Part shown: positions 3,438-28,978 of the stretch, in pieces
Layout: the number at the start of each line of letters is the position of its first letter
How positions within the stretch are numbered: position 1 is the stretch's first letter
Sequence record: PQ579973.1
DNA: 44,409 bases
Strand: one strand, 5' to 3'
DNA from: Escherichia phage MirsaeidiM_Esher4
Notes under the pieces: model-generated
The model's database searches: none
What the model was told of the DNA's origin: nothing
Seen by the model: the letters and a program-made list of their open reading frames with translations, nothing else
Program-made: the position numbers and the translations under genes

Positions 3438-3764
3438 ATGCGTACATTAATCTTAGCTTTAGGTTTCATATCTTTTACTGCGGTAGGTTCCACTTGTGAG
3501 CAGATTTATTCTGAAACCCCATTAATAACTGCGGGTTTAATAGAAAGCGCCCCTGTAGCCGCGCAAAAAATGTTTAAAAATGCGGTTATTAAAGAATGTG
3601 AGGCCGCGTATTCAGCAGGAGCAGCAGGGGTTAGCTTCGACCTTGTAACAGGCCTTGTCATGAGTTCTGTGGACATGAAATCACCAGGCTACAGCAGCGC
3701 ATTGGTGGCTACTCGCTTACAAATCGTCTCTCTAGCTTGGGCGGCGGGAGTGGAAAGTAAATAG
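3438..3764 (+). CDS. Small secreted protein of unknown function
   Basis: N-terminal signal-peptide-like segment MRTLILALGFISFTAVGSTC; two Cys in mature part; AT-rich codon usage; own operator-controlled promoter; opposite strand to surrounding tail genes. Confidence 0.6.
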   Translation: MRTLILALGFISFTAVGSTCEQIYSETPLITAGLIESAPVAAQKMFKNAVIKECEAAYSAGAAGVSFDLVTGLVMSSVDMKSPGYSSALVATRLQIVSLAWAAGVESK

Positions 3765-3808
3765 CTATTGTAGTTAAATAAGACAAATCCTAAACACGAG
3801 GAATAAGC

Positions 3809-4939
3809 ATGGCCAGGAAGAAAATAACCGACGAACAGTTACAGGAAGAATTGAACGCCGGTATGAAGAATATCGACATCGCCCGTAAATACGGCATCTC
3901 CGACCGCGTTATTCGTATCCGTAAAGCGAAGCTGGCTAAGAAAGGTGTAGGCCACGGGCGTGACGTTAGTTACCTTGTACCGGACGGCTACAAGATTAAA
4001 GGAACGTCATCACTGGTGGATGAGTTTGGCAACACCAAGTTGCAATGGGTTAAGACCGACACCGATGCCGAACGTCAGGTTGAATTGATGAAAGCCGTAA
4101 TCGAAGGCATGAAGTCGGAGATTACACCAGTTGCACCTGTTAAAGCCGTTCGCGCCAAACGAGACGACAAGCTACTCAACCTTTACACTGTGTCTGATTT
4201 CCATCTCGGTATGCTGGCCTGGGCTGACGAGAGCGGCGACGACTGGGACATGAAGATTGCGGAAGACCTGTTCTCCCGCTGGTTCGACGCAGCGTTCCAG
4301 AAAGCACCGGATGCCGGAACAGGAGTTATTAATCTGCTGGGCGACCTTGCGCATTTCGATAGTCTGGACGCCGTTACACCTGCCAGTGGTCATGTTCTTG
4401 ACGCTGACACCCGCTATCAGAAACTTGTACGCTACATGATTCGTATGGTCCGCCGTGTCATTGATATGGCTCTCGTTAAACATAAAAATGTTCGCTTGCT
4501 TATCGTGCAAGGTAACCACGACGAAAGCGGAATGATTTGGTTAGCTGAGATGTTTAGTACGCTGTACGACAATGAGCCGCGTGTGTTCGTCGATACGTCG
4601 CCGGATGTTTACAAGATGGTGCAACACGGCAAAACGACGCTGTTCTTCCATCATGGGCATAAAGCACGATTCGACGCTATCGAACCGGTTATGATCGCCA
4701 AGTTCCGCAAAGCGTTCGGCGAGAGTGTTTACAGCTACGCCCACGTGGGTCACCTGCACCACCAAAAGATTATAGAAAGCCGTAACATGATTGTTGAGCA
4801 ACACCGCACTCTCGCGGCTAAAGATGCATATGCCTCCCGCGGTGGGTGGATGTCGGGCCGCAGTGCAAACGTAATTACTTATAGCGCCGAATATGGCGAG
4901 GTCGCACGTTTAACTATTTCACCGGAGATGCTTGGATGA
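3809..4939 (+). CDS. HTH-domain calcineurin-like metallophosphoesterase (possible nuclease or phosphatase)
   Basis: N-terminal HTH-like region IDIARKYGISDRVIRIRKAKL; metallophosphoesterase motifs VSDFH, LLGDLAH, VQGNHDE, FFHHGH, VGHLHH. Confidence 0.75.
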   Translation: MARKKITDEQLQEELNAGMKNIDIARKYGISDRVIRIRKAKLAKKGVGHGRDVSYLVPDGYKIKGTSSLVDEFGNTKLQWVKTDTDAERQVELMKAVIEGMKSEITPVAPVKAVRAKRDDKLLNLYTVSDFHLGMLAWADESGDDWDMKIAEDLFSRWFDAAFQKAPDAGTGVINLLGDLAHFDSLDAVTPASGHVLDADTRYQKLVRYMIRMVRRVIDMALVKHKNVRLLIVQGNHDESGMIWLAEMFSTLYDNEPRVFVDTSPDVYKMVQHGKTTLFFHHGHKARFDAIEPVMIAKFRKAFGESVYSYAHVGHLHHQKIIESRNMIVEQHRTLAAKDAYASRGGWMSGRSANVITYSAEYGEVARLTISPEMLG

Positions 4940-5421
4940 AAGATATTGTGATTTTCGATTTAGACGGGACATTGGCAGATGGTACTCATCGTTTACACCT
5001 GCTGCCGAAAGATAACTACGGCGAAACCTGGGCGTGGAAACCATTTAACATGGCGTGCAAAGACGATGCACCCATTAAAGATAACATCGAACTGTGTAAC
5101 GCCCTTAATCGTCGCTATGCCGTTATTATCTTAACAGGCCGTAGTGATGACGCGGAAAAAGAAACCAGAATGTGGTTGCAGCGCCACCGCGTCGAATTTT
5201 ATCAGTTAATCATGCGCAAAAAACACGACAACAGAAAAGACATCGTAATTAAAGAAGAGGTGTTGCGTGCTATTGGGCCGGAGAGAATCTTGTGTGCATT
5301 CGACGACTCTCCAGCGGTAATAAAGCATTTCCGCGAACTCGGCATAACCACTCACGCAGTTACTGAATACGACTGTAACGGGAACTCTACACACTTAAAA
5401 CCACATGGGAGTGATAAATAA
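4936..5421 (+). CDS. HAD-superfamily phosphatase (nucleotidase or polynucleotide 3'-phosphatase-like)
   Basis: HAD motif I FDLDGTL near N-terminus, later ILTGR and FDDS segments; start overlaps upstream stop (ATGA). Confidence 0.7.
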   Translation: MKDIVIFDLDGTLADGTHRLHLLPKDNYGETWAWKPFNMACKDDAPIKDNIELCNALNRRYAVIILTGRSDDAEKETRMWLQRHRVEFYQLIMRKKHDNRKDIVIKEEVLRAIGPERILCAFDDSPAVIKHFRELGITTHAVTEYDCNGNSTHLKPHGSDK

Positions 5422-5975
5422 TGGCTAAGGTAATTATTCTTAATGGTCCTGCGGGCTGCGGGAAAGACACACTTGCTAGGGCGCTGGTAGAAATGGGCTT
5501 TGCGAAGGGTGTCGCCAGTTTCAAGAATCCGATGTTCAATATTGCTATGGCCGCGTTAGGCCGGGATGCTTACCGCGAGTTTCTCGACGGCTACGACGAC
5601 CGGGCGCGGAAAGAAAAGCCAGAGGGTTTCCTTAACGGGTTGTCTCGGCGTCAGTTCATGATTGCCATTTCCGAGCAATTCATTAAACCGGTATTCGGTG
5701 ATGATTATTTCGGTAAGTATCTTGCCGGAAACTTGCCCGACGGCGACGAAGTTTTTGTGGTGTCTGATGGCGGGTTCGCCAGCGAAGTAACCCCTATCGT
5801 TGCCGCGGGGCATGATGTGAGAATCGTCCGCTTGCACAGAGACGGCCATACGTTTGAAGGGGACAGCCGCGGTTACCTGTACGATATTGATGGTGTAAAA
5901 GATTATGACACCTACATCATACCGGGTTACGTTAAATCGAACGCTATAGGCATTGCTTTAAGATTAGGTTTGTAA
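5421..5975 (+). CDS. P-loop kinase, dNMP kinase-like
   Basis: Walker A GPAGCGKDT with GKDT signature and overall resemblance to phage deoxynucleoside monophosphate kinases; start overlaps upstream stop. Confidence 0.6.
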   Translation: MAKVIILNGPAGCGKDTLARALVEMGFAKGVASFKNPMFNIAMAALGRDAYREFLDGYDDRARKEKPEGFLNGLSRRQFMIAISEQFIKPVFGDDYFGKYLAGNLPDGDEVFVVSDGGFASEVTPIVAAGHDVRIVRLHRDGHTFEGDSRGYLYDIDGVKDYDTYIIPGYVKSNAIGIALRLGL

Positions 5976-5977
5976 GA

Positions 5978-6003
5978 AAAAGGCCCCAAACGGGGCCTTA
6001 GTT
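5978..6003. terminator. Bidirectional intrinsic terminator hairpin
   Basis: GGCCCC-AAAC-GGGGCC stem-loop with T/A-rich runs on both sides, between convergent genes. Confidence 0.6.
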
Positions 6004-13701: not shown

Positions 13702-13724
13702 GTTTCCCCTTTCTCGATAAGTAA

Positions 13725-13748
13725 AGCCCCGCCTTAAAGCGGGGCGCT
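13725..13748 (-). terminator. Terminator-like hairpin at 3' end of module A
   Basis: GCCCCGC-CTTAAA-GCGGGGC stem-loop followed on minus strand by UUUACUUAUC. Confidence 0.4.
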
Positions 13749-13779
13749 AGTCCTTATCATTTAAACATAGAAACGGCGT

Positions 13780-13955
13780 AATCTCAGTAAACCAGTTACT
13801 TTTTACACAAGCAATAGAGTATGGCCCTTCCGAACGCGTCAGCGTAACTACACTCAGGACTTACGTCCCGCTCCGTTACCTGCCCGCGCCGCGGTCGCTT
13901 GTTCATACTTCACAAGCTCAGGTGGAGCTTAGCACATTTTTGGTGAAAAGTCAAC
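13780..13955 (-). promoter_or_regulatory. Paralogous non-coding module, copy A (promoter TTGACT-N17-TAAGCT plus conserved hairpins; candidate small RNA or antitermination element)
   Basis: About 80 percent identical to 24977..25151 apart from a variable hairpin; no conserved ORF in any frame; 16-bp perfect palindrome AACTATTCGAATAGTT (13953-13968) overlaps the -35. Confidence 0.5.
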
Positions 13956-14020
13956 TATTCGAATAGTTTATTCCAACATTTACAATTGAGTGGAATAACT
14001 GGAATAGTCACAGGCACTAA

Positions 14021-14040
14021 AAAGCCCCTTTCGGGGCTTC
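14021..14040 (-). terminator. Intrinsic terminator after decoration gene
   Basis: AGCCCC-TTTC-GGGGCT hairpin followed on minus strand by TTTTTAG. Confidence 0.55.
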
Positions 14041-19769: not shown

Positions 19770-20000
19770 TCAACCCTCCATACTTAATAGCACGTACCCT
19801 GGTAGGTAAGCCCCTACGTCCGCAACATGAATGATGCGGCGGTAAACGATACGGCCTGTGTACCCACCGTTTTCGTATTCTCGCAGGCACAGAGTGTCAT
19901 ATTCCTTAAAGTCGCGGTCGTTTAATCGAAGTTCCGCCAGCTTGATTCCCTCCATAACAGGCTCAAAATGATCAGGTAATATCTTCAGTTCGTGAAACAT
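19770..20000 (-). CDS. Hypothetical protein
   Basis: Track ORF, translationally coupled. Confidence 0.4.
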   Translation of the reverse strand: MFHELKILPDHFEPVMEGIKLAELRLNDRDFKEYDTLCLREYENGGYTGRIVYRRIIHVADVGAYLPGYVLLSMEG

Positions 20001-20004
20001 ACTC

Positions 20005-20187
20005 TCACCCCACTATCTCATCACCGAGCCACGCCGTTTCTCGTATATCGTCGACCACACAAGCGGCGTGCTCACGGCTAATTGCAAAAATGTAGAAGCT
20101 GAACTTCTTCCCGTCGGCGTCGATGTGGTTAACCGAGTATGGTTTCCACAGGACGCCATCGATAACTACGGGTTCAGGCGCTTTCAT
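20005..20187 (-). CDS. Hypothetical protein
   Basis: Track ORF. Confidence 0.35.
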   Translation of the reverse strand: MKAPEPVVIDGVLWKPYSVNHIDADGKKFSFYIFAISREHAACVVDDIRETAWLGDEIVG

Positions 20188-20431
20188 ACGCTTTACCGCA
20201 TTTTAAGCATGTGACTCGATGCCCCCCATCAACTAAATGCAGGCGGTAATCATGCTCGCAGGCGTTCATCTTTTCCTCTTCTCCTCTCAACAACATGAGA
20301 AGAACCTTAAATGCGGCTAACTGGTACTCACCGTTAATCGACAGTTGCCCGCCTAGCGTCTGTTTCTCCGACTCAAGCACCAGAATACGGCGCTCGAGCG
20401 ATGCGATTGTGATTTTAGGCATTGGTATCAC
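20174..20431 (-). CDS. Hypothetical protein with C-terminal zinc-ribbon-like Cys/His cluster
   Basis: CEHD...CLKCG segment. Confidence 0.4.
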   Translation of the reverse strand: MIPMPKITIASLERRILVLESEKQTLGGQLSINGEYQLAAFKVLLMLLRGEEEKMNACEHDYRLHLVDGGHRVTCLKCGKAYESA

Positions 20432-20600
20432 CCTTGTTCAGGTTGAAGCGGTTAATCAGTTCACGGCGTGTCTCGTAAAGCGACTCAACCATCTGCTCAG
20501 CTACTGCGATTTTAGTATTCAGGACGTGCATCACGTGTCCGATGTCTACGCCGCCGTTAACAGCCTCTACCATCATCTTTTCGTATTCACGGTCAGTCAT
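20415..20600 (-). CDS. Hypothetical protein
   Basis: Track ORF. Confidence 0.35.
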   Translation of the reverse strand: MTDREYEKMMVEAVNGGVDIGHVMHVLNTKIAVAEQMVESLYETRRELINRFNLNKGDTNA

Positions 20601-20755
20601 TCTTTACGCTCTCCCCACATGCGATTTAGATACTTGTTCTTGTCCGGCCCCAGGAAACTGTTGCGTTTCATCAGTTCCTCGCGTGTCGGGAACGGGGTGT
20701 GATTGACTTTACGGCCTACTCGTAATGGTTGGCTTACTTGACCTTGTTCGCTCAT
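20597..20755 (-). CDS. Small hypothetical protein (52 aa, below cutoff)
   Basis: ATGA-coupled on both ends, fills gap between track ORFs. Confidence 0.3.
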   Translation of the reverse strand: MSEQGQVSQPLRVGRKVNHTPFPTREELMKRNSFLGPDKNKYLNRMWGERKE

Positions 20756-20946
20756 TTCTTCTCTCCCGCAAGTTCAATATTGAACACGATACGAACATCT
20801 TCCAGCGGCGTAGTACCTACTAGCTTCGCGGCGTAAGCCCCTGCATCCTCAGATTGCTGGAACTGGCCGCAATCAACGTACTCGTCTCCGTCGAAATAAG
20901 AAACAACGAAACAACCTTCACCAACTTCCGGGATTATATTTTTCAT
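20752..20946 (-). CDS. Hypothetical protein
   Basis: Track ORF. Confidence 0.4.
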   Translation of the reverse strand: MKNIIPEVGEGCFVVSYFDGDEYVDCGQFQQSEDAGAYAAKLVGTTPLEDVRIVFNIELAGEKK

Positions 20947-21092
20947 TTCTTCTCTCCTGCATAAGCTGCTTTAAGTGTCTGCATCGCAGCGAACCAGAAC
21001 GCGTCCGCTGGAATGCTGTTGCTCAGGTTACTAACGGCGATGCGTGCCATCAGTTGCGCGTCTTTAAATGCTTCGGTATCTGTTATTTTCAT
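20943..21092 (-). CDS. Small hypothetical protein (49 aa, below cutoff)
   Basis: ATG 21092 with GGAG RBS; first gene after promoter at 21126-21154. Confidence 0.3.
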   Translation of the reverse strand: MKITDTEAFKDAQLMARIAVSNLSNSIPADAFWFAAMQTLKAAYAGEKK

Positions 21093-21125
21093 CTTCGCTA
21101 CTCCGTTCTCGTTGTCGATGGAGTA

Positions 21126-21154
21126 AATATAATAGGGTCTAAGGTAATAGTCAA
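21126..21154 (-). promoter_or_regulatory. Sigma70-like promoter (TTGACT-N17-TATATT) with operator half-site CCCTATTATATT
   Basis: Hexamers with 17-nt spacer read on minus strand; shares AATATAATAGGGT with site at 3379-3392. Confidence 0.4.
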
Positions 21155-21171
21155 CTAGTCATTACAGAAAA

Positions 21172-21205
21172 CAGATAAAAAAATCCCGGCTGGGTCAGTG
21201 CCGGG
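21172..21205 (-). terminator. Intrinsic terminator after endolysin
   Basis: CCCGGC...GCCGGG hairpin followed on minus strand by AUUUUUUUA. Confidence 0.6.
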
Positions 21206-21271
21206 ATAAAACTGGAGAGCAGAGGGATGGAACAGGAGGTGATTTAAGTATCGTCGGATTAGTCTTAGGTG

Positions 21272-21760
21272 TCAACCTTTCACCGCACGCCCGATTGCCT
21301 CAGCCTCCTGCCACGGTTTACCGTCGAACAATGCCAGACGTCCTGCGGTACGGCGACGCAGGCCAAGTAACGGTTTGCCGTTCTGGTTGATGAACAGCGC
21401 CAGCTTAGCCCGCAGCGTCGTAATATCACCCGAACGCAGCGCCTTACCGGTTCCGGTAGTAGCTGCTATCACACCAGCACCTGCGTTATAGACCAGGTCG
21501 CACACAGCGTCGAACTGTGCCTGTGTCAGTGAATGGTGTGCTGCTGCATCGACCGCAGCTACGGCCTTAGCCATATCGCGATTCAGTAACAGGAGGCCCT
21601 GACCCGGAGTGATGGTCTTTCCGGGCGTTACGTCCGGTCCGTAGTGCCCGTAGCCAATAGTCAGGTACTTCTCGTTCGACGTAGCACGATACGCAGTTCC
21701 ACGGAACCCCTCGAACGCGGCGGTAAAATGCAATCCATTATCTGAAATGTTTCGAGACAC
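21272..21760 (-). CDS. Endolysin, phage lysozyme (GH24-like)
   Basis: Motifs AAFEGFRGTAY...TIGYGH and GLRRRTAGRLALF typical of phage lysozymes; start moved to GTG 21760 (GGAGGG RBS) from TTG track start 21811. Confidence 0.8.
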   Translation of the reverse strand: MSRNISDNGLHFTAAFEGFRGTAYRATSNEKYLTIGYGHYGPDVTPGKTITPGQGLLLLNRDMAKAVAAVDAAAHHSLTQAQFDAVCDLVYNAGAGVIAATTGTGKALRSGDITTLRAKLALFINQNGKPLLGLRRRTAGRLALFDGKPWQEAEAIGRAVKG

Positions 21761-22010
21761 GCTTATGCCCTCCGTATGACAGCCACGCCTGGCGAATCTG
21801 GCGCAGCGCAACTAATGTGATTAACGTCTCAGGCAGCGTAGGCGACATGCTGCCCTGTAACAGGTGGATACACCCGGCGGCGCAGACGATAGCGGTCAGG
21901 ATATAGAGCACCCTACCAAATAGCCCGTCATCCACGCTCGGATGGTATACATTAAACAGCGATGTGCCGCCGATTGCCAGCATACCGCCGAACCAGAATA
22001 ACTCATTCAT
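21738..22010 (-). CDS. Holin-like or antiholin-like membrane protein
   Basis: About 90 aa with two hydrophobic helices; ATG 22010 with GAGGAGG RBS; between holin and endolysin. Confidence 0.5.
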   Translation of the reverse strand: MNELFWFGGMLAIGGTSLFNVYHPSVDDGLFGRVLYILTAIVCAAGCIHLLQGSMSPTLPETLITLVALRQIRQAWLSYGGHKRVSKHFR

Positions 22011-22311
22011 CTGTGCCTCCTCGACGTGCGATGTATTCTCCGGCGACGATACCGGAGAGACGGGAATAGATAGGCATCCAGAGAATAGCGATGATGAAGC
22101 CAAGGCCAGCGATTTCACGGTCGCCCGTGATACCGAACCATTGAGCCGCGAGAGGTGCGCCAAATACAGCGCAGGCGAAACCAGTAGCAATAAAGCAGAA
22201 TCCGTCGATAGGGCCAGAAATAACGGACTTATGTTGTCGTAGTCCGATGACCCCTCCGGCGAGTGCGGCAGCGAGAAGCCAGCCTGTCACTGTTTCAGTA
22301 AATTTATCCAA
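22003..22311 (-). CDS. Holin (putative, multi-TMD)
   Basis: 102 aa with about three hydrophobic helices and charged C-terminus, upstream of endolysin. Confidence 0.55.
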   Translation of the reverse strand: MDKFTETVTGWLLAAALAGGVIGLRQHKSVISGPIDGFCFIATGFACAVFGAPLAAQWFGITGDREIAGLGFIIAILWMPIYSRLSGIVAGEYIARRGGTDE

Positions 22312-22386
22312 GATGAATCCTCCAGGTGCGTATTAAGTATGCAGTAACTGGAGGATACCACGGTTAGGAATTATCCTAATAACGGT

Positions 22387-22680
22387 TTATTTATGACGCC
22401 AGATGTATTGTCGTCTCTGTGGTTTCGTCGGAATATCATCGTATCCCAACGATTTCCAGTAATTAAATAGCCGGTTAGCGATTGCTGCTCGTTCCTGTGT
22501 TTTAAACTCACCGAGATTCACAGCCTTCCCGTTCTGGAATCCACAGGCGCGGACCGCTTTGCGTCTGGCCTGAATCTCGGGGTACAATGCATTACGGCGG
22601 CGCTTGTGTATACGCGTATTCGCTCTCGGCGACAGCGGCGCAAGGCCGCTTCGTTTCAGGATGTCAGTTGCTAACGACAT
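22387..22680 (-). CDS. Hypothetical basic protein
   Basis: Track ORF. Confidence 0.35.
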   Translation of the reverse strand: MSLATDILKRSGLAPLSPRANTRIHKRRRNALYPEIQARRKAVRACGFQNGKAVNLGEFKTQERAAIANRLFNYWKSLGYDDIPTKPQRRQYIWRHK

Positions 22681-22883
22681 TATTTCTCCTGTTTACCAAG
22701 TCGCTTAGGTGAGCAGATAGCGCGTACCTCCGAATCGTTGGGCTTGTCGCCCTGAAACAGGAAGTGCGCGTTCTCTGCGGCGCGTGCCGCTGACTGGCAC
22801 GCCTCCATCGAATAAAACGTTTCCGATGCCGCTAGTTGCATCTGGCCCGCCGACAGTACCCAGATAAATAAGATGCTGGTCAT
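22680..22883 (-). CDS. Hypothetical protein with N-terminal hydrophobic segment
   Basis: Track ORF. Confidence 0.35.
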   Translation of the reverse strand: MTSILFIWVLSAGQMQLAASETFYSMEACQSAARAAENAHFLFQGDKPNDSEVRAICSPKRLGKQEK

Positions 22884-23308
22884 TTCAGTTTAGCCCCGCA
22901 ATCAAGACACTTTTTAGTAAAACCCGGCGCAAAGCCTTTGCGCAAACCGACGGTATTAGCGTGTTGGCAATCGCTCAATTCCGATTCTTGCTTACCGCAT
23001 TTAGCGCAAATGAAGTAGTCCCCTTTTTCATCTAGCGCCCAATCATGCTCGCATTCCTGAACGTCTTCCTTACGGCAACCAGATTGCTCGCCCTTGCGGA
23101 TAAGTTTATACGCCTCCACGTCACCCGTAGCTTGGGCCAGAGCCAGATGCAACTCCTTAATCTGCGCCGAAGCATCACGTAACTGGTTCTTGAGTGACAA
23201 CACCTCGTGCGCCAGGTCTTCGCACTGTTGCTTGTGCGCCTTACGTTCGTCCAGTGTTAGGTGCATTGCCGCTACCAAGTACTCGAATACTGCGTCGTTG
23301 TTATTCAT
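22880..23308 (-). CDS. Hypothetical protein, coiled-coil N-terminus and Cys-rich C-terminus
   Basis: Two CxxC pairs in C-terminal region. Confidence 0.4.
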   Translation of the reverse strand: MNNNDAVFEYLVAAMHLTLDERKAHKQQCEDLAHEVLSLKNQLRDASAQIKELHLALAQATGDVEAYKLIRKGEQSGCRKEDVQECEHDWALDEKGDYFICAKCGKQESELSDCQHANTVGLRKGFAPGFTKKCLDCGAKLK

Positions 23309-23493
23309 TTCGTATCTCCTACAAATCCAACCTTCATTATTCCGCGTTCGCCTTTCTTTCCGGCGCTAACCCAACCGCGGGCAACTTCATAATTGGCAAA
23401 TACAAGTTTAGGTACGTGCTTTCCGTCGTGCGCCAACTGATACCCGGCCCAACACGGGGTAACCTTAATCAAATGCTCGTTTGAATTAAACAT
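23305..23493 (-). CDS. Hypothetical protein
   Basis: Track ORF; first gene after promoter at 23525-23553. Confidence 0.35.
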   Translation of the reverse strand: MFNSNEHLIKVTPCWAGYQLAHDGKHVPKLVFANYEVARGWVSAGKKGERGIMKVGFVGDTK

Positions 23494-23524
23494 CTTCCGT
23501 CTCTCCTCTCGTTTGTGTAAATGA

Positions 23525-23553
23525 ATAGTAGCCTATTCTATCTTAGTGTGCAA
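23525..23553 (-). promoter_or_regulatory. Sigma70-like promoter (TTGCAC-N17-TACTAT) with overlapping operator
   Basis: Same architecture as 24825-24853; operator contains palindrome AATAG-N4-CTATT. Confidence 0.5.
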
Positions 23554-23868
23554 GTAAATTTTATTGGTGTGTTATAGAGTCGATGAACGCCAGTAACCCC
23601 CTTTCCGCTTCTGCCTCTCTTTCTTCAAGCGACCAGGTAGCGGATTCCTCTGTTGCCGTTGCTAAATCGGTTTTAGCATCAACCATCGTGTCGATTAACG
23701 TGATTAGTCGTTCAGCCTGTTCTTTAGTAATCATTGTTGCATCTCCTGCAATAGTCGCTTCGATTGTTGCGTTTGATGAAAGTGTCGCCTTTTGACGACA
23801 CTAAGTTAAAGTTGTACGCTGCTGTGTAGCAGCGTAAGTCACTCAGTAAAATCCCAAACTATTGAACA

Positions 23869-24069
23869 TCACACTTCTGGCGGCTCTGGTAACGGCCTCC
23901 AGTGTGTCACGTACTTATCATAGTGATTCCAGAACGGCTTTCTCCCGTCATCAGGAACTATGTAATAATCGTGCTGAACTGCGTTATTTAACGTTTCATA
24001 CACCAGGAACTCTTTATCCGTATACCCATTACCCGGCAGCATCTCACTACACTTAATCCACTCACCCAT
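23869..24069 (-). CDS. Hypothetical protein
   Basis: Track ORF. Confidence 0.35.
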   Translation of the reverse strand: MGEWIKCSEMLPGNGYTDKEFLVYETLNNAVQHDYYIVPDDGRKPFWNHYDKYVTHWRPLPEPPEV

Positions 24070-24217
24070 ACCTCACACCTCTTTCAATCAAGGATTGCAC
24101 ACCAGCTTTCCACGCCCGCCACGCGAGACGCGTCTTAACGTTCAGGTACTCTTTCTTTGAACCCTTGTTAACCGGCAGACCCTCGACCACAGCCCACCGT
24201 TCAAATGCTTCTCTCAT
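24062..24217 (-). CDS. Small hypothetical protein (51 aa, below cutoff)
   Basis: ATGA-coupled at both ends. Confidence 0.3.
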   Translation of the reverse strand: MREAFERWAVVEGLPVNKGSKKEYLNVKTRLAWRAWKAGVQSLIERGVRYG

Positions 24218-24402
24218 ACCAGAACCTCACATTCATCCCGATACACGAACAATAACGACCCTTTGTACTCAATCATAAAACCATAATGGTTGATGCTGAA
24301 CGCCGGAAAAACATCACCTACCGAGATACCGAAATCTATAAGCCTGCGGTCAGTTATACGGACAAGCCTGCGGTCAGTTATACGGATTCGCATTAACGGC
24401 AA
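24214..24402 (-). CDS. Hypothetical protein containing 24-bp tandem duplication
   Basis: Track ORF; tandem repeat encodes RITDRRLV twice. Confidence 0.3.
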   Translation of the reverse strand: MPLMRIRITDRRLVRITDRRLIDFGISVGDVFPAFSINHYGFMIEYKGSLLFVYRDECEVLV

Positions 24403-24596
24403 CCTCCCTCAGCGTCGTCGGCACAAGCATCATGATTCGATGCCGTTCGTATTGCTCGTAAGCTATTTAACATTCGCTCGCTGGTAGATGTAATAACCGT
24501 TATACCGTCCGCCAGATGCACCTCGTAGCGTTCAGCTACGAAATATATTTCCTCGAAATCATGATGTTTCAGTTCTTCAAATAATTCTTCCATCAC
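24393..24596 (-). CDS. Hypothetical acidic protein
   Basis: Track ORF. Confidence 0.35.
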   Translation of the reverse strand: MMEELFEELKHHDFEEIYFVAERYEVHLADGITVITSTSERMLNSLRAIRTASNHDACADDAEGGCR

Positions 24597-24799
24597 TTCA
24601 CCCTCCCCCCTTTAAATTTAAAATTGTTGCCGATGAGTTTTAAGTTCTCCTCCGCTACGTATATTTGTGAATTTACTCCTCTCACATTTTGCACGGTAAC
24701 TACGTACTTTCCTGGAAATAAAGCAGATTTTAATTCAATTATGCCGTGTTTATCGTCGGAGTATTTAACCAACTGACCGCGTTTAAACATAACCCTCAC
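24593..24799 (-). CDS. Hypothetical protein (first gene of minus-strand early-like operon)
   Basis: ATG 24799 with GAGGAG RBS downstream of operator-controlled promoter. Confidence 0.4.
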   Translation of the reverse strand: MRVMFKRGQLVKYSDDKHGIIELKSALFPGKYVVTVQNVRGVNSQIYVAEENLKLIGNNFKFKGGRVK

Positions 24800-24824
24800 T
24801 CCTCTGTCTCGTTTCGATAAGTGA

Positions 24825-24853
24825 ATAGTATCCTATTATGTTGGGGTGTGCAA
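24825..24853 (-). promoter_or_regulatory. Sigma70-like promoter (TTGCAC-N17-TACTAT) with overlapping operator
   Basis: Operator GTGAATAGTATCCTATTATG overlaps the -10; about 35 nt upstream of ATG 24799. Confidence 0.5.
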
Positions 24854-24976
24854 GAGAATAGTTACGTTGCCGTTGTGACTCTTTCGTTTAATGGGATAGC
24901 GAGCGAAACGAAACGAACGTGGTGCCGAAGGCACCAAGAGTGAGTGAGTGAGCTTGCGGTTCTAACCTACGGCAAA

Positions 24977-25151
24977 TCAGTAACTTAGATAATTAGACAG
25001 GAATTACAATAGACTATGGCCCTTCCGAATGCGCCAGCGAGACTCACTCCACACGTCGAGACGTGCTCGTTTCGCCTGCCGCGCACCGCGGTCGCTTGTT
25101 CATACTTCACAAGCTCAGGCTGAGCTTACCATATTTCTTAGTAAAAGTCAA
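24977..25151 (-). promoter_or_regulatory. Paralogous non-coding module, copy B (promoter TTGACT-N17-TAAGCT plus conserved hairpins; candidate small RNA or antitermination element)
   Basis: Paralog of 13780..13955; -35 and -10 at identical relative positions; followed on minus strand by hairpin GGTGCCGAAGGCACC (24921-24935) and U-rich tract. Confidence 0.5.
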
Positions 25152-25256
25152 TACTAGTAGCATCTTTTGTATTTTAGTAACTTTGTGTGGTGTTTTGGTT
25201 GCTTTTACAAAGTTACCGCCTTATACTTCGGTATATCTTACATAGGAGAACGTGAA

Positions 25257-25427
25257 ATGACTATCAATGAAGTTGCAGAATTAATCGGTGTCACCCGCCA
25301 GACAATTAATAACTGGATTAAGAGTGGAAAGTTTCCAGATTGCGGCGTTAAAGTAATGGGCCGCCGGATGCCGGGAACATTCGACCGTAATAAAGTTGAA
25401 GCGTGGATTAAGGAGAACGTGAAATGA
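25257..25427 (+). CDS. AlpA/excisionase-family HTH DNA-binding protein
   Basis: MTINEVAELIGVTRQTINNWIKSGKFP signature; ATG 25257 with AGGAGAA RBS. Confidence 0.6.
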   Translation: MTINEVAELIGVTRQTINNWIKSGKFPDCGVKVMGRRMPGTFDRNKVEAWIKENVK

Positions 25428-25657
25428 TTGGGCGTATGGGTTGTAGCTTCCGCGAAGACGGCAGCATTAAATATTATTTCAAGATTGCGTCAAATATAAC
25501 CGACGATGGGTGTTATGTAGAACTTTTCCCTTATAACTTTTGTGGACCCACTAAAATAGTTAAATTTTCTATAGAGGATATCCTTGATTGCAGTTTTTAC
25601 CGTAGCGAAGGAGAGTGGGTTAATGCGGTGCGTAGACAAAAGAAACCCCAACGCTAG
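25424..25657 (+). CDS. Hypothetical protein
   Basis: ATG overlapping upstream stop. Confidence 0.4.
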   Translation: MIGRMGCSFREDGSIKYYFKIASNITDDGCYVELFPYNFCGPTKIVKFSIEDILDCSFYRSEGEWVNAVRRQKKPQR

Positions 25658-25707
25658 AACGTCGGGGCCGAAGCATAAATCATCAAAGTAAGCACAAGGA
25701 TTATACA

Positions 25708-25836
25708 ATGACGAAGTTAATAGTTCCACAGCTACGCCGCCAGAAACACGGCGCTGATTTCTTCGCACCGGTAAAGATGAACCGCGCAATGCGCCGTATG
25801 CAGGAAGCCTTAGAACGTGCGGAGAAAAAGAAATGA
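25708..25836 (+). CDS. Small basic hypothetical protein (42 aa, below cutoff)
   Basis: ATG 25708; stop overlaps primase start (ATGA). Confidence 0.3.
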   Translation: MTKLIVPQLRRQKHGADFFAPVKMNRAMRRMQEALERAEKKK

Positions 25837-28094
25837 ATATTGTTTTTGCAACGCTGCGTAACACATTCGATAAAAACCCTGTAGCGCGTGAAATGCCGCT
25901 GGAGCAGTTCGTAGAGTATGTCTGTGATACATCGAAGCGTTTATCCGTGGACCCGTCGTGGACTAAGGAAGAGTACGACGCCGCCAAGATTAAACAGAAA
26001 GCTATCGCACCCGTTGGTGGTCGCCGTAAGAACGCGATTCTGGAAGACAGTGTGGTTAAGTTCGACTTTGACCATCTCAACCGTACTCAGTACCGCAACC
26101 TGACACGCAAATTTAAGAATGCGCCGTTCTTCAACATTCTGCATACAACGGCGTCACACCGGCACGCGTGCAAAAACGGGGATTACGCCTTCCGCGTTCT
26201 GGTTCCGGCTCGCACGCCGTTTAACTCTAACGATGCGTGGATGGTGCAACGTGCTATTTGTGCCGAGTTAGAAATAGACGAAGCATTGCGCGACCACTGC
26301 ACGGAAGACGGCAATCGCCTTATCTACCTGCCGCATAAAGAGTCAAAGATAACGGTTACAGAAGGGCGGGTTATCCGTGCTGAGCGGTACATCAAGAAAG
26401 CCGAAGAGATGGGATTGCGTAAGCGTGAAGCTAAGACGCTTGCTGCCGATGAGCACGGGCTTAACGCAGATATAGCCCATTTCTGCGAAGCTGAGTTAGG
26501 TCTTGACGCTCTATCTTCCGGCCGCGGGTACGAAGTACCATGTCCGAACGAACACCTGCACACCGGAAAAGGTTCCACCAGCATTATGCTTGACGGTAAA
26601 GAAGTGCGCTTCGTGTGCCAGCACACAAACAACGGCGCTTGCACTGAACTTAACCGTCGACAACATTTGGCCTTGCGTATGTGCGGGCTGCCAGACGAGC
26701 TTAACGTAGACAAGCAACCTATCAGTATTAACAGCATTCGTGCGGCTTTGCCGGATTTACCGGACGAAGAGATTGAGGAATTGCACCGCACAGAGAACGA
26801 AGAGCCTGTAACTTGCACTCTGGAAGACCTTGAAGACGAGCCGGAAGTAGAAAAAGAACCTGCTTACTCCGTCGTAGACGGCCTTATGCAGACTAATGAA
26901 TCCTTCTACATTTGCGCAAAGTCCCACACTGGTAAGTCAACATTTAGTATGGCGATTGACGCCGCTATTGCCGCTGAAAAAAGATATGCGTTCGGCGGGG
27001 CTGAGGTCGCAGAAGGACATGCGTTCATTTTTGCGGGTGAAGGTGCGCAGTCGTTCGAGCGACATAAAAAGTCTTTGCAGATTGCCCTCGGGGATAGCCT
27101 GGACCGCTTGCACATTATCGATTGTGTCGCCGATGGGTGTAATTTACTTGATGAGGCGTGGCGCCGCCAGGCGGTGAGAATGATGCGCCGTGTTGCCGGT
27201 GAAGAGAAAATTGTAAAGGTTACGTTTGATACCCTACAAACTTGCATACCGGGCTTCGACGAAAACGATAACAGGTCGATGAAAGAAGCGGCGCAGGCGC
27301 TTAACGAAATAGCGGCAACGCTTAACGCTGCGGTCGGCGCTATGGTGCACCCGACTAAAAACATCGACGAAACTGTGCCGTCTGAAAACGGCATGATGCC
27401 GAAGGGTGGAAGTGATTTTCACAACTCCATCGATAACGGGATGTTCCTGCATAAACCAGACAACGACAATAACTTAGAGATAAACCTGTATCACATAAAG
27501 AACCGAAATGGAGAACGGCAGAAAGCCAGAGGATTCGTAATACAGAAGATTAAGATAGCGGAGCCGCCGGAAAAGAAAGAACCAACTCACAACTTCATGG
27601 GGCTTCCGGAAGGGTATAGCAGTGATGATGTGCGCGATTTTGACGCGGGAAATCCGCATATTGATGTCTTTGTCAACTTCAACGCCTTCTCTGTCTTTGT
27701 GAAGAAAGTAGAAGGTATGACTGACGAACAGAAGGAAGCCGTTAAAGAAAAGGTAGGCCAGTTCGAGAAACTGGATTCCAAAGAGGCTACGGTTATTTAC
27801 GCATTAGGTAAATTGCAGGAGCAAGGCGACGACAAGCGAGGGTTCTCTATGTCAGCTATCGTCAAAGCGGCGAAAGAAGATAGTTACGGCGTACCGATTA
27901 ACGCTAATAACGACCTTCGAAAGAAACTGGAAGAGATGCACGAGGCGGGGGTTATCGTCTCTGGGCTGGATAACAACAACAGGCCCATCCCTAAGCAATA
28001 CAGGTTGCCGTGGGGTATAAACGACAACAAAATTCCTAAGACAATATACGAACCGAATGAAATGCTGACAGTGACAGAGGAGGATTTGGAATAG
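25833..28094 (+). CDS. Primase/helicase-like replication protein (zinc-binding region plus RecA/DnaB-like P-loop ATPase)
   Basis: Cys/His cluster CPNEHLHTGKG...CQHTNNGAC; Walker A SHTGKSTFSMAIDAA; 753 aa. Confidence 0.65.
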   Translation: MNIVFATLRNTFDKNPVAREMPLEQFVEYVCDTSKRLSVDPSWTKEEYDAAKIKQKAIAPVGGRRKNAILEDSVVKFDFDHLNRTQYRNLTRKFKNAPFFNILHTTASHRHACKNGDYAFRVLVPARTPFNSNDAWMVQRAICAELEIDEALRDHCTEDGNRLIYLPHKESKITVTEGRVIRAERYIKKAEEMGLRKREAKTLAADEHGLNADIAHFCEAELGLDALSSGRGYEVPCPNEHLHTGKGSTSIMLDGKEVRFVCQHTNNGACTELNRRQHLALRMCGLPDELNVDKQPISINSIRAALPDLPDEEIEELHRTENEEPVTCTLEDLEDEPEVEKEPAYSVVDGLMQTNESFYICAKSHTGKSTFSMAIDAAIAAEKRYAFGGAEVAEGHAFIFAGEGAQSFERHKKSLQIALGDSLDRLHIIDCVADGCNLLDEAWRRQAVRMMRRVAGEEKIVKVTFDTLQTCIPGFDENDNRSMKEAAQALNEIAATLNAAVGAMVHPTKNIDETVPSENGMMPKGGSDFHNSIDNGMFLHKPDNDNNLEINLYHIKNRNGERQKARGFVIQKIKIAEPPEKKEPTHNFMGLPEGYSSDDVRDFDAGNPHIDVFVNFNAFSVFVKKVEGMTDEQKEAVKEKVGQFEKLDSKEATVIYALGKLQEQGDDKRGFSMSAIVKAAKEDSYGVPINANNDLRKKLEEMHEAGVIVSGLDNNNRPIPKQYRLPWGINDNKIPKTIYEPNEMLTVTEEDLE

Positions 28095-28103
28095 GTAAAA
28101 ATA

Positions 28104-28122
28104 AAGGGGCGTTAAGCCCCTT
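28104..28122. terminator. Bidirectional terminator hairpin
   Basis: AGGGGC-GTTAA-GCCCCT between convergent primase and repressor genes. Confidence 0.5.
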
Positions 28123-28327
28123 CACCGAACGCCAGCCACTTGGCGTCTACTTCAAGCACTTCCGCCAGTTTAAACAGCGTCGCCGGGCGGACGTCCTGAG
28201 TTACACCGAGTGCAAGCTGGTTAATTGCGCCTTGGGAAACACCGGCCAGGACAGCCAGATGGCGCTGGGAGATACCGAGTTCTTTACGGCGTTGCTCTAC
28301 ACGGATACCTAGTTCAGATGGTTGCAT
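28112..28327 (-). CDS. XRE-family HTH transcriptional regulator (Cro/CI-like)
   Basis: Signature ISQRHLAVLAGVSQGAINQLALG; divergent from operator-containing promoters. Confidence 0.75.
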   Translation of the reverse strand: MQPSELGIRVEQRRKELGISQRHLAVLAGVSQGAINQLALGVTQDVRPATLFKLAEVLEVDAKWLAFGEGA

Positions 28328-28354
28328 GCCAATTACTCCTTAGTCAGTTGATAT

Positions 28355-28420
28355 GTGAATAGTACCATATTAATTATTTTAGAAAAGCCCATTGACAAGT
28401 GAATAGTTCGCTATTATAGT
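28355..28420. promoter_or_regulatory. Divergent promoter region with two operator copies (TTGACA-N17-TATAGT rightward; leftward regulator promoter)
   Basis: Operators GTGAATAGTACCATATTAAT (28355-28374) and GTGAATAGTTCGCTATTATAG (28399-28419); TTGACA at 28392-28397. Confidence 0.55.
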
Positions 28421-28451
28421 TAGCCCATACCAAACGAGAGGAGAGAAACAA

Positions 28452-28973
28452 ATGTTAGAGAAATTCTTGGTATTACTGGAACGTTTCGTAGTCGCCCACG
28501 AACTGATTGCTGCAAACAGTGTGAAACAACCGACTAGCAAATCTGTAGGTGAATTGACTGTTGACGTCGCGGTAACTGGGGTAGAGACAGTTAAAAAAGA
28601 ACTGGCTAAAGCACTTGAAGAAGTCGAGAAGGCGAAAGAAATCCCGGTTGAAGGTGAAGACATCGTCGACACTAAACCAGCAGAAGAAGAGAAGCCGAAG
28701 CGCAAGCCGCGTAAGGACAAAGTAGAGGAACCAACGCCAGAGCCGGAAGAAGAGAAAGAAGAAGTCGATTACCAGTCTCTGCGCGACCAGATTCAGGCTA
28801 TCGACGATGCGATTAACGAAGGCCCAAGCGATGCCGCGTGCGACGATTCTGACGAACTGCTGGAAGAGTTTACCGGTAAGAAGATGAAGATTGCAGCGAT
28901 TAAAGACGAAGACCTGGCTGAGTATCTGGAGCGCCTGACAGCAATCAAGAACAAGTATTTCGAAGAAGAATAA
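28452..28973 (+). CDS. Highly acidic early protein of unknown function
   Basis: Strong RBS AGAGGAGAGAAACAA; Glu/Asp/Lys-rich sequence; first gene from operator-controlled promoter. Confidence 0.5.
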   Translation: MLEKFLVLLERFVVAHELIAANSVKQPTSKSVGELTVDVAVTGVETVKKELAKALEEVEKAKEIPVEGEDIVDTKPAEEEKPKRKPRKDKVEEPTPEPEEEKEEVDYQSLRDQIQAIDDAINEGPSDAACDDSDELLEEFTGKKMKIAAIKDEDLAEYLERLTAIKNKYFEEE

Positions 28974-28978
28974 CTATC

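What the first reader, a model, noticed from the sequence alone, without database searches (positions are those of the whole stretch)
13780..13955. Paralogous roughly 170-bp non-coding module, copy A: candidate small RNA or antitermination cassette inside the late operon
The segment is about 80 percent identical to 24977-25151. Both copies share a 5' block (CAATAGANTATGGCCCTTCCGAAYGCGYCAGCG) and a 3' block (CGCGGTCGCTTGTTCATACTTCACAAGCTCAGG..GAGCTTA) holding two inverted repeats. Between the blocks each copy has a different short hairpin at the same position (GGAC-TTAC-GTCC here, CACGTC..GACGTG in copy B), which resembles structure-preserving covariation. Both carry TTGACT-N17-TAAGCT at the same relative position on the minus strand, and each is followed by a GC hairpin with a U-rich tract about 200 nt downstream. 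No ORF is conserved between the copies. Copy A sits between two terminator hairpins (14021-14040 and 13725-13748), so it could be a free-standing sRNA gene or a promoter-proximal antitermination element.
Basis: seen in the sequence. Interest (0 to 1): 0.8.

Follow-up and report, generated by a model that had tools for sequence, protein, structure and literature searches.

The report
Structured leader RNA of phage operons
The two repeats are copies of a promoter plus a roughly 110-nt folded RNA leader at the start of the long rightward operons of a Kagunavirus phage; this RNA family is undescribed, occurs in about 450 Salmonella and E. coli phage genomes, and most plausibly helps RNA polymerase read through terminators.

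Summary
The window is a Kagunavirus (Guernseyvirinae) genome. Both copies lie on the minus strand. Each has an extended -10 sigma-70-type promoter (TTGACT-17-TGnTAAGCT), a conserved transcribed leader, and a GC hairpin about 180 nt downstream.

The leader folds into a 5'-terminal hairpin (P1) and a long irregular stem II made of helices PL, P3 and P4. A conserved tail follows (AAGGGCC..CUAUUGC). Covariation supports the fold: 95% of cells are paired against 88% in shuffles and about 40% in slid controls, and ten pairs change on both sides. G.U pairs fix the strand. No reading frame is conserved.

Copy A sits upstream of the spanin, scaffold and capsid genes. It is in every relative found: 180 K-type records, and 269 records with a divergent J-type in the same slot. 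It is 93-98% identical between genera whose flanking genes are 64-90% identical. Copy B, at the divergent early region, is present in only about a quarter of K-type genomes.

Nothing matches in Rfam, in HK022 put, or in E. coli genomes. No Q- or N-like protein was seen.

Best reading: a cis-acting leader that modifies transcription elongation, working like put (confidence about 0.4). The function is inferred, not shown. Rivals are a free-standing sRNA and a stabilising or processing 5' UTR.

The parts
14019..14038 (-). Terminator T1. It closes the upstream terminase-portal-Ig-like operon: GCCCC-GAAA-GGGGC followed by UUUUU.
   Evidence: Sequence. Annotated as a terminator in phage Shashou.
13956..14018 (-). 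Operator-like repeats upstream of the copy A promoter: TATTCC / GGAATAA motifs and the palindrome CTATTCGAATAG abutting the -35. They are not part of the A/B repeat.
   Evidence: The same motif family lies upstream of the J-type and S-type promoters.
13926..13954 (-). Copy A promoter. -35 TTGACT at 13954-13949, a 17-nt spacer, TG at 13934-13933, -10 TAAGCT at 13931-13926. The predicted start site is G at about 13919.
   Evidence: Read. Conserved in all K-type copies. The J-type has TAGACT-17-TGnTACGCT.
13897..13917 (-). Copy A helix P1, the 5'-terminal hairpin: GCUUGU-GAAGUAUGA-ACAAGC.
   Evidence: U-A changes to U.G in L024 and L048. B6 and the J-type have different stems at the same place.
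13830..13894 (-). Copy A stem II. PL pairs CCG.CGGCGCG with CGCGUUCGG. P3 pairs CAGGUAAC with GUUAC.CUG. P4 is a hairpin at 13870-13855. The 3' internal loop AGUGUA is conserved.
   Evidence: Minimum-free-energy (MFE) folds. Covariation counts.
13812..13829 (-). Copy A conserved tail, AAGGGCCAUACUCUAUUG.
   Evidence: Alignments.
13746..13811 (-). Copy A A+U-rich 3' part of the leader. It holds the conserved island GAUUACGCCGU.
13717..13745 (-). Hairpin T2 (GCCCCGC-UUUAA-GGCGGGGC followed by UUUACUUAU). It lies 24 nt upstream of the i-spanin ATG at 13701.
   Evidence: Compensatory stem changes among relatives. Fixed distance to the ATG in K, J and S types.
25123..25151 (-). Copy B promoter. -35 TTGACT at 25151-25146, a 17-nt spacer, TGg, -10 TAAGCT at 25128-25123. 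The predicted start site is at about 25116.
25094..25114 (-). Copy B helix P1. Its sequence is identical to P1 of copy A.
25025..25091 (-). Copy B stem II (PL, P3 and P4). The P4 hairpin is at 25066-25051.
25007..25024 (-). Copy B conserved tail, AAGGGCCAUAGUCUAUUG.
24911..24936 (-). Copy B downstream hairpin (UGGUGCC-UUC-GGCACCA) with a moderately U-rich tail.
24825..24853 (-). Second promoter-like site, TTGCAC-17-TACTAT, downstream of copy B and upstream of the first small ORF. It is not part of the repeat.
   Evidence: The site is conserved in SETP13, which lacks copy B.

Best explanation
Each copy is a cassette made of a host sigma-70 promoter of the extended -10 type and a structured RNA leader of about 110 nt that begins at or within 2-3 nt of the transcription start.

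The RNA folds into a 5'-terminal hairpin (P1). One or two nucleotides later comes a long irregular stem II of about 65 nt, built from helices PL, P3 and P4. Some unpaired and wobble-paired nucleotides in and after stem II are conserved: a bulged C, tandem G.U pairs, the loop AG[U/C]GUA, and the tail AAGGGCC..CUAUUGC.

Copy A heads the spanin-scaffold-capsid-connector-tail operon. Copy B heads the rightward operon that runs through small early genes, holin and endolysin to terminase.

Proposed mechanism (inferred): the nascent leader stays in cis with the RNA polymerase that made it, alone or with a host or phage factor. It makes that polymerase resistant to pausing and termination. Only transcripts started at these promoters would then pass the proximal hairpin and the internal terminators of the long operons.

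Shown: the promoter-like sequence, the strand, the fold with covariation, the synteny, and the extreme conservation.

Inferred: the exact start site, that the hairpins terminate, and any effect on RNA polymerase.
For: Fold and covariation:
- On the covariance-model alignment of 36 distinct sequences, 95.1% of cells are paired against 87.8% in shuffles (0 of 500 shuffles reach the observed value) and 30-45% when partners are slid. Ten pairs change on both sides.
- The result is similar when the J-type is added.
- Pair 35:92 of PL occurs as C-G, U-A and A-U. Pair 46:81 of P3 occurs as U-A, A-U and G-C. P4 has at least 8 different stems.
- Each divergent variant, folded on its own, gives the same two-stem architecture.
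- About 100 of the 1036 cells are G.U. The minus strand folds at -39.9 kcal/mol and the plus strand at -26.7.

Conservation and distribution:
- The element is 93-98% identical between this window and Jerseyvirus SETP13, while the flanking genes are 64-90% identical.
- Copy A is in all 180 K-type records. A J-type with a different P1, P3 and P4 but the same PL, loop motif and tail occupies the same slot in 269 more records.

Context:
- A strong terminator lies upstream. A hairpin lies 24 nt before the spanin ATG with no room for a promoter. Canonical terminators lie inside the operon, after the capsid gene at 11354-11333 and at 5999-5980.
- The J-type hairpin lacks a U-tract, so there the leader is simply the 5' end of the operon mRNA.
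- A and B have unrelated terminator stems and no conserved alternative pairing with the leader. That fits a terminator-independent (processive) mode rather than attenuation.
- No Q- or N-like protein was found among the 10 proteins scanned near copy B or in two annotated relatives.
- Two adjacent stem-loops starting at the transcription start is also the layout of HK022 putL (PMC9378689).
Against: - There is no experimental evidence for the start site, for termination at the hairpins, or for read-through.
- The J-type proximal hairpin, and the possible S-type one, is a poor terminator, so a promoter-proximal terminator is not a constant partner of the leader.
- Other promoter-like sites without a leader exist along the copy B operon, at 21275, 21154 and 19002. 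A conserved promoter-like site follows copy B. Copy B could therefore be a self-contained unit.
- Most relatives do without copy B.
- There is no sequence or structure similarity to put.
- Shuffle z-scores of the fold are only moderate: -2.0, -1.2 and -3.9.
- A second, local pairing competes with PL and is unresolved.
Confidence: 0.4

Rival explanations
1. Free-standing trans-acting small RNA. The promoter drives a transcript of about 175-195 nt that ends at the downstream hairpin. The structured core acts as a scaffold or protein-binding module, and the A+U-rich 3' part pairs with host or phage mRNAs or titrates a protein.
For: - In K-type copy A the unit has a promoter and a terminator-like hairpin with a U-rich tail.
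- Copy B is followed by a further conserved promoter-like site, as if it were an insert upstream of the normal promoter.
- The 3' A+U-rich part of copy A is also about 97% conserved.
Against: - The J-type hairpin, and the B2 and B6 hairpins, have no usable U-tract.
- The copy A hairpin lies 24 nt from the spanin ATG with no promoter in between, so the essential capsid operon must be transcribed through it.
- The U-tail is short and interrupted.
- The conserved core is structural rather than a seed.
Confidence: 0.2
2. A passive 5' UTR. The 5'-terminal hairpin and the compact fold protect the long late mRNAs from 5'-end-dependent decay, guide processing, or keep Rho off a 200-nt untranslated leader. 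There is no effect on RNA polymerase itself.
For: - A hairpin starts within 1-3 nt of the predicted start in K and J types and in the possible S-type, although its sequence differs in each.
- The hairpin before the spanin RBS keeps a fixed distance to the ATG.
Against: Simple stabilisers do not need near-invariant unpaired nucleotides, a conserved bulge and tandem G.U pairs held across genera at 93-98% identity.
Confidence: 0.15
3. A binding platform for a phage-encoded or host protein that gives timed control, like N-nut or a translational or RNA-processing regulator. The leader would be inactive on its own.
For: - The conserved single-stranded motifs AG[U/C]GUA and AAGGGCC..CUAUUGC look like recognition sites.
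- Operator-like repeats upstream of copy A suggest that this promoter is regulated.
- A small HTH_17 protein is encoded next to copy B.
Against: - No N-, Q- or RNA-binding protein was recognised.
- The P4 loop is not conserved, so it is not a boxB-like site.
- No convincing boxA is present.
Confidence: 0.12
4. A riboswitch or attenuator. A ligand or a condition switches the leader between terminator and antiterminator folds.
For: - Two mutually exclusive pairings exist for CCGCGGYGCGG: a local hairpin or the long-range helix PL.
- A hairpin follows the leader.
Against: - No conserved complementarity links the leader to the terminator arms, which differ completely between copy A, copy B and the J-type.
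- No Rfam family matches, even at E-values up to 10.
- About 65 nt of poorly conserved spacer separates the core from the hairpin.
Confidence: 0.04
5. A DNA-level element (origin with a primer RNA, operator, or recombination site) or the remnant of a duplicated gene.
For: - Copy B lies in the divergent region at the cumulative GC-skew minimum, next to the helicase-primase gene.
- The inverted repeat AAGCTC-N5-GAGCTT spans the -10 and the start site.
- The core is followed by A+T-rich DNA.
Against: - The universal copy, A, lies among structural genes with no skew feature.
- Strand-specific G.U pairs and compensatory changes point to RNA.
- No frame is conserved and there is no Pfam match.
Confidence: 0.05

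Closest known systems
HK022 put RNAs (putL, putR): cis-acting, protein-independent processive antiterminator RNAs
   Same: - Phage of enterobacteria.
- Two paralogous copies per genome, each downstream of a sigma-70 promoter and upstream of terminators.
- The RNA starts at or near +1 (putL) and consists of two adjacent stem-loops with functionally important bulges and internal loops (PMC9378689).
- No dedicated phage protein was recognised here either.
   Different: - No sequence or structure similarity: the covariance model scores at most 7 bits on the HK022 PL/PR region.
- Different size: about 92-110 nt against about 72 nt.
- Stem I here is short and not conserved in sequence.
- The phage is virulent and not lambdoid.
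- The element heads structural and lysis operons, not early operons.
- Activity is untested.
Lambda PR'-qut-6S RNA-tR' late cassette (Q-dependent antitermination)
   Same: - A constitutive-looking promoter lies directly upstream of lysis and structural genes.
- It is followed about 180-200 nt later by a terminator that must be read through.
- The terminated product would be a short RNA like 6S.
   Different: - No Q-like gene was found.
- Lambda needs no structured RNA, whereas here the conserved feature is an RNA fold.
- A -10-like repeat in the initially transcribed region is only suggestive (TGAGCT in K-type, TACGCT in J-type).
EAR (Bacillus eps operon), canT (Tn916) and conAn2 (pLS20): RNA-based processive antitermination in long operons
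   Same: A structured leader at the head of a long operon that contains internal terminators. These act in cis and are orientation-specific (PMC11658703).
   Different: - Those systems are in Gram-positive hosts and have unrelated sequences.
- No Rfam family matched in the window (I did not check which of these elements Rfam holds).
- canT is about 450 nt long.
- conAn2 needs a protein partner.
Phage-encoded small RNAs with their own promoter and terminator (for example lambda oop, P22 sar)
   Same: A short transcription unit bounded by a promoter and a hairpin.
   Different: Those are antisense to a target gene and are not large conserved folds. Here there is no overlapping gene, and the terminator is not conserved across types.

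Membership tests
HK022 put RNA family | Sequence and secondary-structure homology to putL/putR | tested here: not met
   Covariance model R1, run with filters off on HK022 20000-33000, gives a best score of 7 bits at E = 1.8.
HK022 put RNA family | Two adjacent stem-loops beginning at the transcript start, downstream of a sigma-70 promoter and upstream of terminators | tested here: met
   P1 plus stem II is recovered in every variant. Promoter and hairpins are shown. Sizes differ from put.
HK022 put RNA family | Terminator read-through in cis without phage proteins, dependent on the beta' zinc-binding domain | not testable with these tools
   Needs reporter assays or in vitro transcription, and rpoC mutants.
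Lambda-type Q/qut late cassette | A Q-family antiterminator gene in the genome | tested here: not met
   No such annotation in Shashou or SETP13. Ten proteins around copy B show no Q or N family. The HTH_17 protein scores only 15 bits against AlpA, below the cutoff of 21. Not every protein in the window was scanned.
Lambda-type Q/qut late cassette | Promoter followed by a terminator about 200 nt downstream, directly upstream of late genes | tested here: met
   K-type copy A has its promoter at 13954-13926 and hairpin T2 at 13745-13726. The J-type hairpin lacks a U-tract.
Lambda-type Q/qut late cassette | A -10-like pause element in the initially transcribed region | tested here: inconclusive
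   TGAGCT lies at about -1 to +5 in K-type and TACGCT at about -3 to +3 in J-type. Nothing comparable is seen in the possible S-type.
N/nut or rrn-type antitermination site | A boxA consensus plus a boxB hairpin with a conserved loop | tested here: not met
   The tail CUCUAUUGC / GCUAUAUUGC matches GCUCUUUA poorly. The P4 loop varies freely: GUAA, GUUA, CUCG, CACA, AUUA and others.
Known Rfam families (riboswitches, ribozymes, sRNAs and others) | A score at or above a family's gathering threshold | tested here: not met
   No hit in the whole window. With E-values up to 10 on both loci, only noise at or below 20 bits.
Independent sRNA gene | Own promoter and an efficient intrinsic terminator, conserved together | tested here: inconclusive
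   The promoter is always present. The terminator is good in K-type copy A, moderate in B1, and lacks a U-tract in B2, B6 and the J-type.
Protein-coding gene or remnant | A conserved open frame with indels in multiples of three | tested here: not met
   Indels of 1-2 nt between types. Frames are interrupted or shifted. No Pfam match.

The most novel reading that the evidence does not exclude
The leader is a second, evolutionarily independent family of protein-free RNAs that bind E. coli or Salmonella RNA polymerase and make it terminator-resistant. It would work like put but with a different fold. Virulent Guernseyvirinae would use it to drive their capsid, tail and lysis operons. The competition between the local hairpin and helix PL would act as a co-transcriptional folding checkpoint, so that only promoter-initiated transcripts become active.
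Probability: 0.25. Interest if true: 0.8.

Novelty: new variant of a known kind. Interest (0 to 1): 0.62.

Why it matters
- Guernseyvirinae (Jerseyvirus, Kagunavirus) are among the phages most often isolated for Salmonella and E. coli K1/UTI therapy and biocontrol, yet the six full-text searches run here found no study of how their transcription is controlled.
- This leader is the most conserved non-coding sequence in the stretch compared between genera (11.3-15.5 kb). Annotators have mis-called it as a 36-aa protein.
- If it modifies RNA polymerase, it would add a second family in enterobacteria to the handful of RNA-only antiterminators. That would allow a direct structural and genetic comparison with put.
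- It would also give a compact part (promoter plus about 110 nt) for insulating synthetic operons from terminators.
- If it is instead an sRNA or a protein platform, it is still a new RNA family worth curating, with about 450 genomic instances.

Tried and rejected
- Rfam, at gathering threshold and at permissive E-values: nothing.
- tRNA or tmRNA: none.
- Homology to HK022 put by covariance model: none.
- Host origin or a prophage copy in 5,426 E. coli genomes: no match.
- Protein-coding reading: rejected.
- Helices P0 (CCUG/CAGG) and P0' (CCU/AGG), proposed by single-sequence and alignment folding: dropped. The CCU lies upstream of the predicted start, and B6 has ACU there.
- Register 2 of P3 (CGGAGC/GUUACG): rejected, because B6 cannot form it while register 1 covaries.
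- A -10-like pause signal in the P1 loop (AAGUAU): dropped, because the loop differs in L042, B6 and the J-type.
- A pseudoknot between the loop AGUGU and the tail AUACU: rejected, because the partner of G is hypervariable (C, G, A or U).
- A boxA reading of the tail: unconvincing.
- An antiterminator pairing between the leader and T2: not conserved.
- Wider search for new classes with the degenerate pattern CCGCGNNGC-N35-65-GNNTYCGGAAGG in IMG/VR: only known J-type copies passed the model.
- More distant relatives (capsid protein 54-89% identical): no significant hit.
- A possible third type (S-type, E about 1) shares CGGAAGGGUC, the promoter layout and a 5' hairpin. Homology is not established.
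- Literature searches on Kagunavirus, Jerseyvirus and Guernseyvirinae promoters, transcriptomes and intergenic elements found no description of the element. The 2015 Jerseyvirinae paper is not in the library.

Full report
**What the window is.** BLAST of the region around copy A finds 180 phage records, 178 of which cover at least 80% of the query at 95-99.7% identity. They are Kagunavirus and Jerseyvirus phages of the subfamily Guernseyvirinae, infecting E. coli and Salmonella. The annotated relative Shashou gives the gene map. In window coordinates the minus strand carries the following order:
- the divergent early region, with copy B at about 25.1 kb;
- about 20 small ORFs, an HslV-like protein, holins and endolysin;
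- small and large terminase, portal, head morphogenesis protein and an Ig-like (Hoc-like) protein;
- a terminator;
- copy A at about 13.9 kb;
- i- and o-spanin, scaffold, major capsid protein, a terminator, decoration protein, connectors and tail tube, and a bidirectional terminator.

The plus strand from 25257 onwards carries an HTH_17 protein and the replication genes.

**Check of the observation.**
- Identity over the stated coordinates is 74% globally, against 50% mean and 56% maximum in shuffles. Over the core it is about 80% locally.
- On the minus strand both copies read TTGACT, then 17 nt, then TGnTAAGCT. This is an extended -10 sigma-70-type promoter. It lies at 13954-13926 in copy A and 25151-25123 in copy B.
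- The seventh base after the -10 is a G, at about 13919 and about 25116. The RNA would therefore start GAGCUUGUG.
- Conservation between the copies begins at the -35 and runs about 165 nt into the transcript. The sequence upstream of the -35 is unrelated.
- Minus-strand hairpins with U-rich tails follow at 13745-13726 and 24936-24920.
- A covariance model built from the variants finds exactly two copies in the window, at 148 and 110 bits. It finds two in Shashou and one in SETP13.

**It is an RNA, read from the minus strand.** I collected variants from IMG/VR by exact patterns, by covariance model and by synteny with the capsid gene.
- The K-type comes in several forms: the dominant A1, the mosaics A2 and A3, and six copy B forms, B1 to B6.
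It occupies the same slot upstream of the i-spanin gene in other Jerseyviruses such as SE2, in 269 records.

When each variant is folded alone from the predicted start to CUAUUG, the minimum-free-energy structure is the same in all:
- P1, a 5'-terminal hairpin;
- a linker of 1-2 nt;
- stem II, a long irregular helix made of PL, P3 and P4;
- a tail.

The helices compare as follows across types.

| Helix | K-type | Other forms |
|---|---|---|
| P1 | GCUUGU / ACAAGC | B6: GCUUGUG / CGCAAGC; J-type: UACGCU / AGCGUA |
| PL | CCG.CGGYGC / GCRUUCGG | Near-invariant in K and J; bulged C and tandem G.U pairs; pair 35:92 occurs as C-G, U-A and A-U |
| P3 | CAGG[U/A/G]AAC / GUU[A/U/C]C.CUG | J-type: (GGU)CGCG / CGCG(ACC) |
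| P4 | at least eight different stems | Loops not conserved |

On the model-based alignment (36 distinct rows, 31 pairs) the counts are as follows.

| Measure | Observed | Shuffled | Slid partners |
|---|---|---|---|
| Cells paired | 95.1% | 87.8% (0 of 500 shuffles reach the observed value) | 30-45% |
| Pairs changed on both sides | 10 | 5.9 | 0-5 |

With the J-type included the result holds: 88.9% paired against 79.0% in shuffles, and a covariation score of 0.239 against 0.092.

About a tenth of the paired cells are G.U. These would be A.C mismatches on the other strand. The minus-strand core folds at -39.9 kcal/mol, with the MFE structure making up 33% of the ensemble. The plus strand folds at -26.7 kcal/mol. 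Shuffle z-scores are moderate (-2.0, -1.2, -3.9), so covariation is the main evidence rather than energy.

No reading frame survives between types, and indels are 1-2 nt. The 36-aa ORF annotated in Shashou is therefore spurious.

**Conserved unpaired parts.** These are:
- the 3' internal loop AG[U/C]GUA of stem II;
- the tail AAGGGCC, then five variable positions, then CUAU(A)UUGC;
- further downstream, the island GAUUnCGCCGU.

P1, the P4 stem and loop, and the 5' internal loop are free to vary in sequence.

**Strength of constraint.** Between the window and Jerseyvirus SETP13 the element is 93-98% identical in 100-nt windows. The capsid, scaffold, spanin and Ig-like genes around it are 64-90% identical. 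Form A2 (locus L027) carries the stem II of a copy B form (B5, L059) inside copy A flanks, so the paralogues exchange sequence.

**Context and inference on function.**
- Copy A is preceded by a strong terminator (GCCCC-GAAA-GGGGC-UUUUU at 14019-14038) that closes the previous operon.
- It is followed by a hairpin only 24 nt before the spanin ATG.
- No promoter fits between that hairpin and the ATG. The spanin-scaffold-capsid-tail operon must therefore be transcribed from the copy A promoter, or from read-through of T1, and through this hairpin.
- Further canonical terminators lie inside the operon, at 11354-11333 after the capsid gene and at 5999-5980. The one after the capsid gene is conserved in the J-type.
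- In the J-type the proximal hairpin keeps its position, and its stem is kept by compensatory changes, but it has almost no U-tract. What is universal is therefore 'promoter plus structured 5' leader of the late operon', not 'promoter-terminator unit'. This argues against a purely free-standing sRNA.
- The terminator stems of copy A, copy B and the J-type are unrelated, and nothing in the leader is complementary to them in a conserved way. This argues against a riboswitch-type attenuator and for a terminator-independent mode.
- No Q, N or other antiterminator protein is recognisable. The neighbour of copy B is an HTH_17 protein (41 bits) that scores only 15 bits against AlpA.
- The layout resembles HK022 putL/putR (PMC9378689) and, more loosely, EAR, canT and conAn2 (PMC11658703): paralogous copies, each just after a sigma-70 promoter, two adjacent stem-loops from the start, conserved bulges and loops, and terminators downstream.
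- It is not a member of the put family. The model finds nothing in the HK022 PL/PR region.

I therefore rank a cis-acting, elongation-modifying leader that works like put first, at about 0.4. The activity is wholly inferred.

**What weakens that reading.**
- Copy B occurs in only about 42 of 180 K-type genomes.
- Copy B is followed by its hairpin and then by a promoter-like site, TTGCAC-17-TACTAT at 24853-24825. SETP13 has that site at the same place without having copy B. Copy B may thus be a self-contained cassette inserted upstream of the ordinary promoter.
- SETP13 has another, unrelated promoter and leader of about 370 nt in that slot.
- Other promoter-like sites without the leader occur along the copy B operon.
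- A passive role of the 5' hairpin and compact fold in stability, processing or protection from Rho is possible. It does not explain the near-invariant unpaired nucleotides.

**Unresolved structural points.**
- The segment CCGCGGYGCGG can also form a local hairpin, CCGY-NNN-RCGG. In L062 a double change (C to U and G to A) keeps that hairpin while weakening PL.
- PL itself has three pair types at 35:92. Both pairings may form in succession during transcription.
- In the J-type the hexamer TACGCT is the -10, and it recurs as the 5' arm of P1. Its complement AGCGTA is both the 3' arm of P1 and the conserved loop of stem II. In the K-type the loop is 7/8 complementary to the -10 region. I have no tested explanation.

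**Distribution and novelty.**
- No Rfam family matches.
- There is no match in 5,426 complete E. coli genomes.
- A possible third type (S-type) is not significant, at E about 1.
- Literature searches found genome papers that only list predicted promoters and terminators (PMC7203180, PMC9825357), and one RNA-seq time course in which a search for 'intergenic', 'promoter', 'non-coding' and 'sRNA' found none of these terms (PMC12645636).
- I conclude that the RNA family is undescribed, as far as these tools can tell.

Noticed in passing
window 13956-14018 (minus strand, upstream of the copy A -35); L143 2437-2490; L166 2060-2125: Repeated TATTCC / GGAATAA motifs and the palindrome CTATTCGAATAG abut the -35 of the late promoter. 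The same motif family lies upstream of the J-type and S-type promoters. It also occurs in a second intergenic region between spanin and scaffold in some relatives (L125, L151 and L157 at about 3257). It is absent upstream of copy B. These are probably operators for a phage DNA-binding regulator. PMC9825357 lists a similar PHIRE motif (tgAATAGTa-ccTATTat-T, 7 copies) as 'phage promoters'.
   Followed up: partly
window 24825-24853 (minus strand); L066 36318-36346: A promoter-like site, TTGCAC-17-TACTAT, lies about 35 nt upstream of the first small rightward ORF and downstream of the copy B hairpin. It is conserved (TTGTGT-17-TACTAT) in SETP13, which has no copy B.
   Followed up: partly
L066 (SETP13) 35990-36310: Where the window has copy B, SETP13 has a different promoter (TTGACA-17-TAAGTT) and an unrelated non-coding leader of about 300 nt with its own hairpins. 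This slot seems to host interchangeable non-coding cassettes.
   Followed up: no
L027 2217-2337 compared with L059 1607-1727: A copy at the copy A locus (form A2) carries a stem II identical to that of a copy B form (B5), inside copy A flanks. This indicates recombination or gene conversion between the two paralogues.
   Followed up: partly
L156 2100-2240; L161, L164, L165; L166 2140-2260: A possible third, remote type (S-type) sits in the same slot. It has the promoter TGGACT-17-TGnTAACCT, a 5' hairpin CGUUC-UAC-GAACG, a GC-rich structured region, and then GACCGCGCGGAAGGGUC..GUCUGUUAC. The model E-value is about 1, so homology is not established.
   Followed up: partly
L066 5447-5872: SETP13 carries an endonuclease VII (homing-type) gene on the opposite strand, inserted between the Hoc-like gene and the leader cassette. 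The cassette itself is left intact.
   Followed up: no
L054 (Shashou) 5621-5731 and 37530-37637; window 13799-13906 (minus strand): Small 'hypothetical protein' genes annotated inside both leader copies in Shashou are very likely mis-calls of the RNA element. The copy A frame is broken in copy B and in the J-type. The copy B ORF, annotated on the strand opposite to the RNA, was not examined.
   Followed up: yes
window 3438-5975 (plus strand), flanked by 5980-5999: An island of plus-strand genes interrupts the minus-strand tail operon. By the Shashou annotation these are a superinfection-immunity-like protein, a phosphatase and small ORFs. On the side facing the tail-tube operon the island is bounded by a perfect bidirectional terminator, AAGGCCCC-N4-GGGGCCTT.
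   Followed up: no
whole window: The window is nearly the same length as IMG/VR contig UViG_3300010279_000003 (44,407 bp against 44,409 bp). The pieces of that contig seen here (L051, L064, L167) carry a closely related copy A that differs from the window's at a few positions.
   Followed up: no
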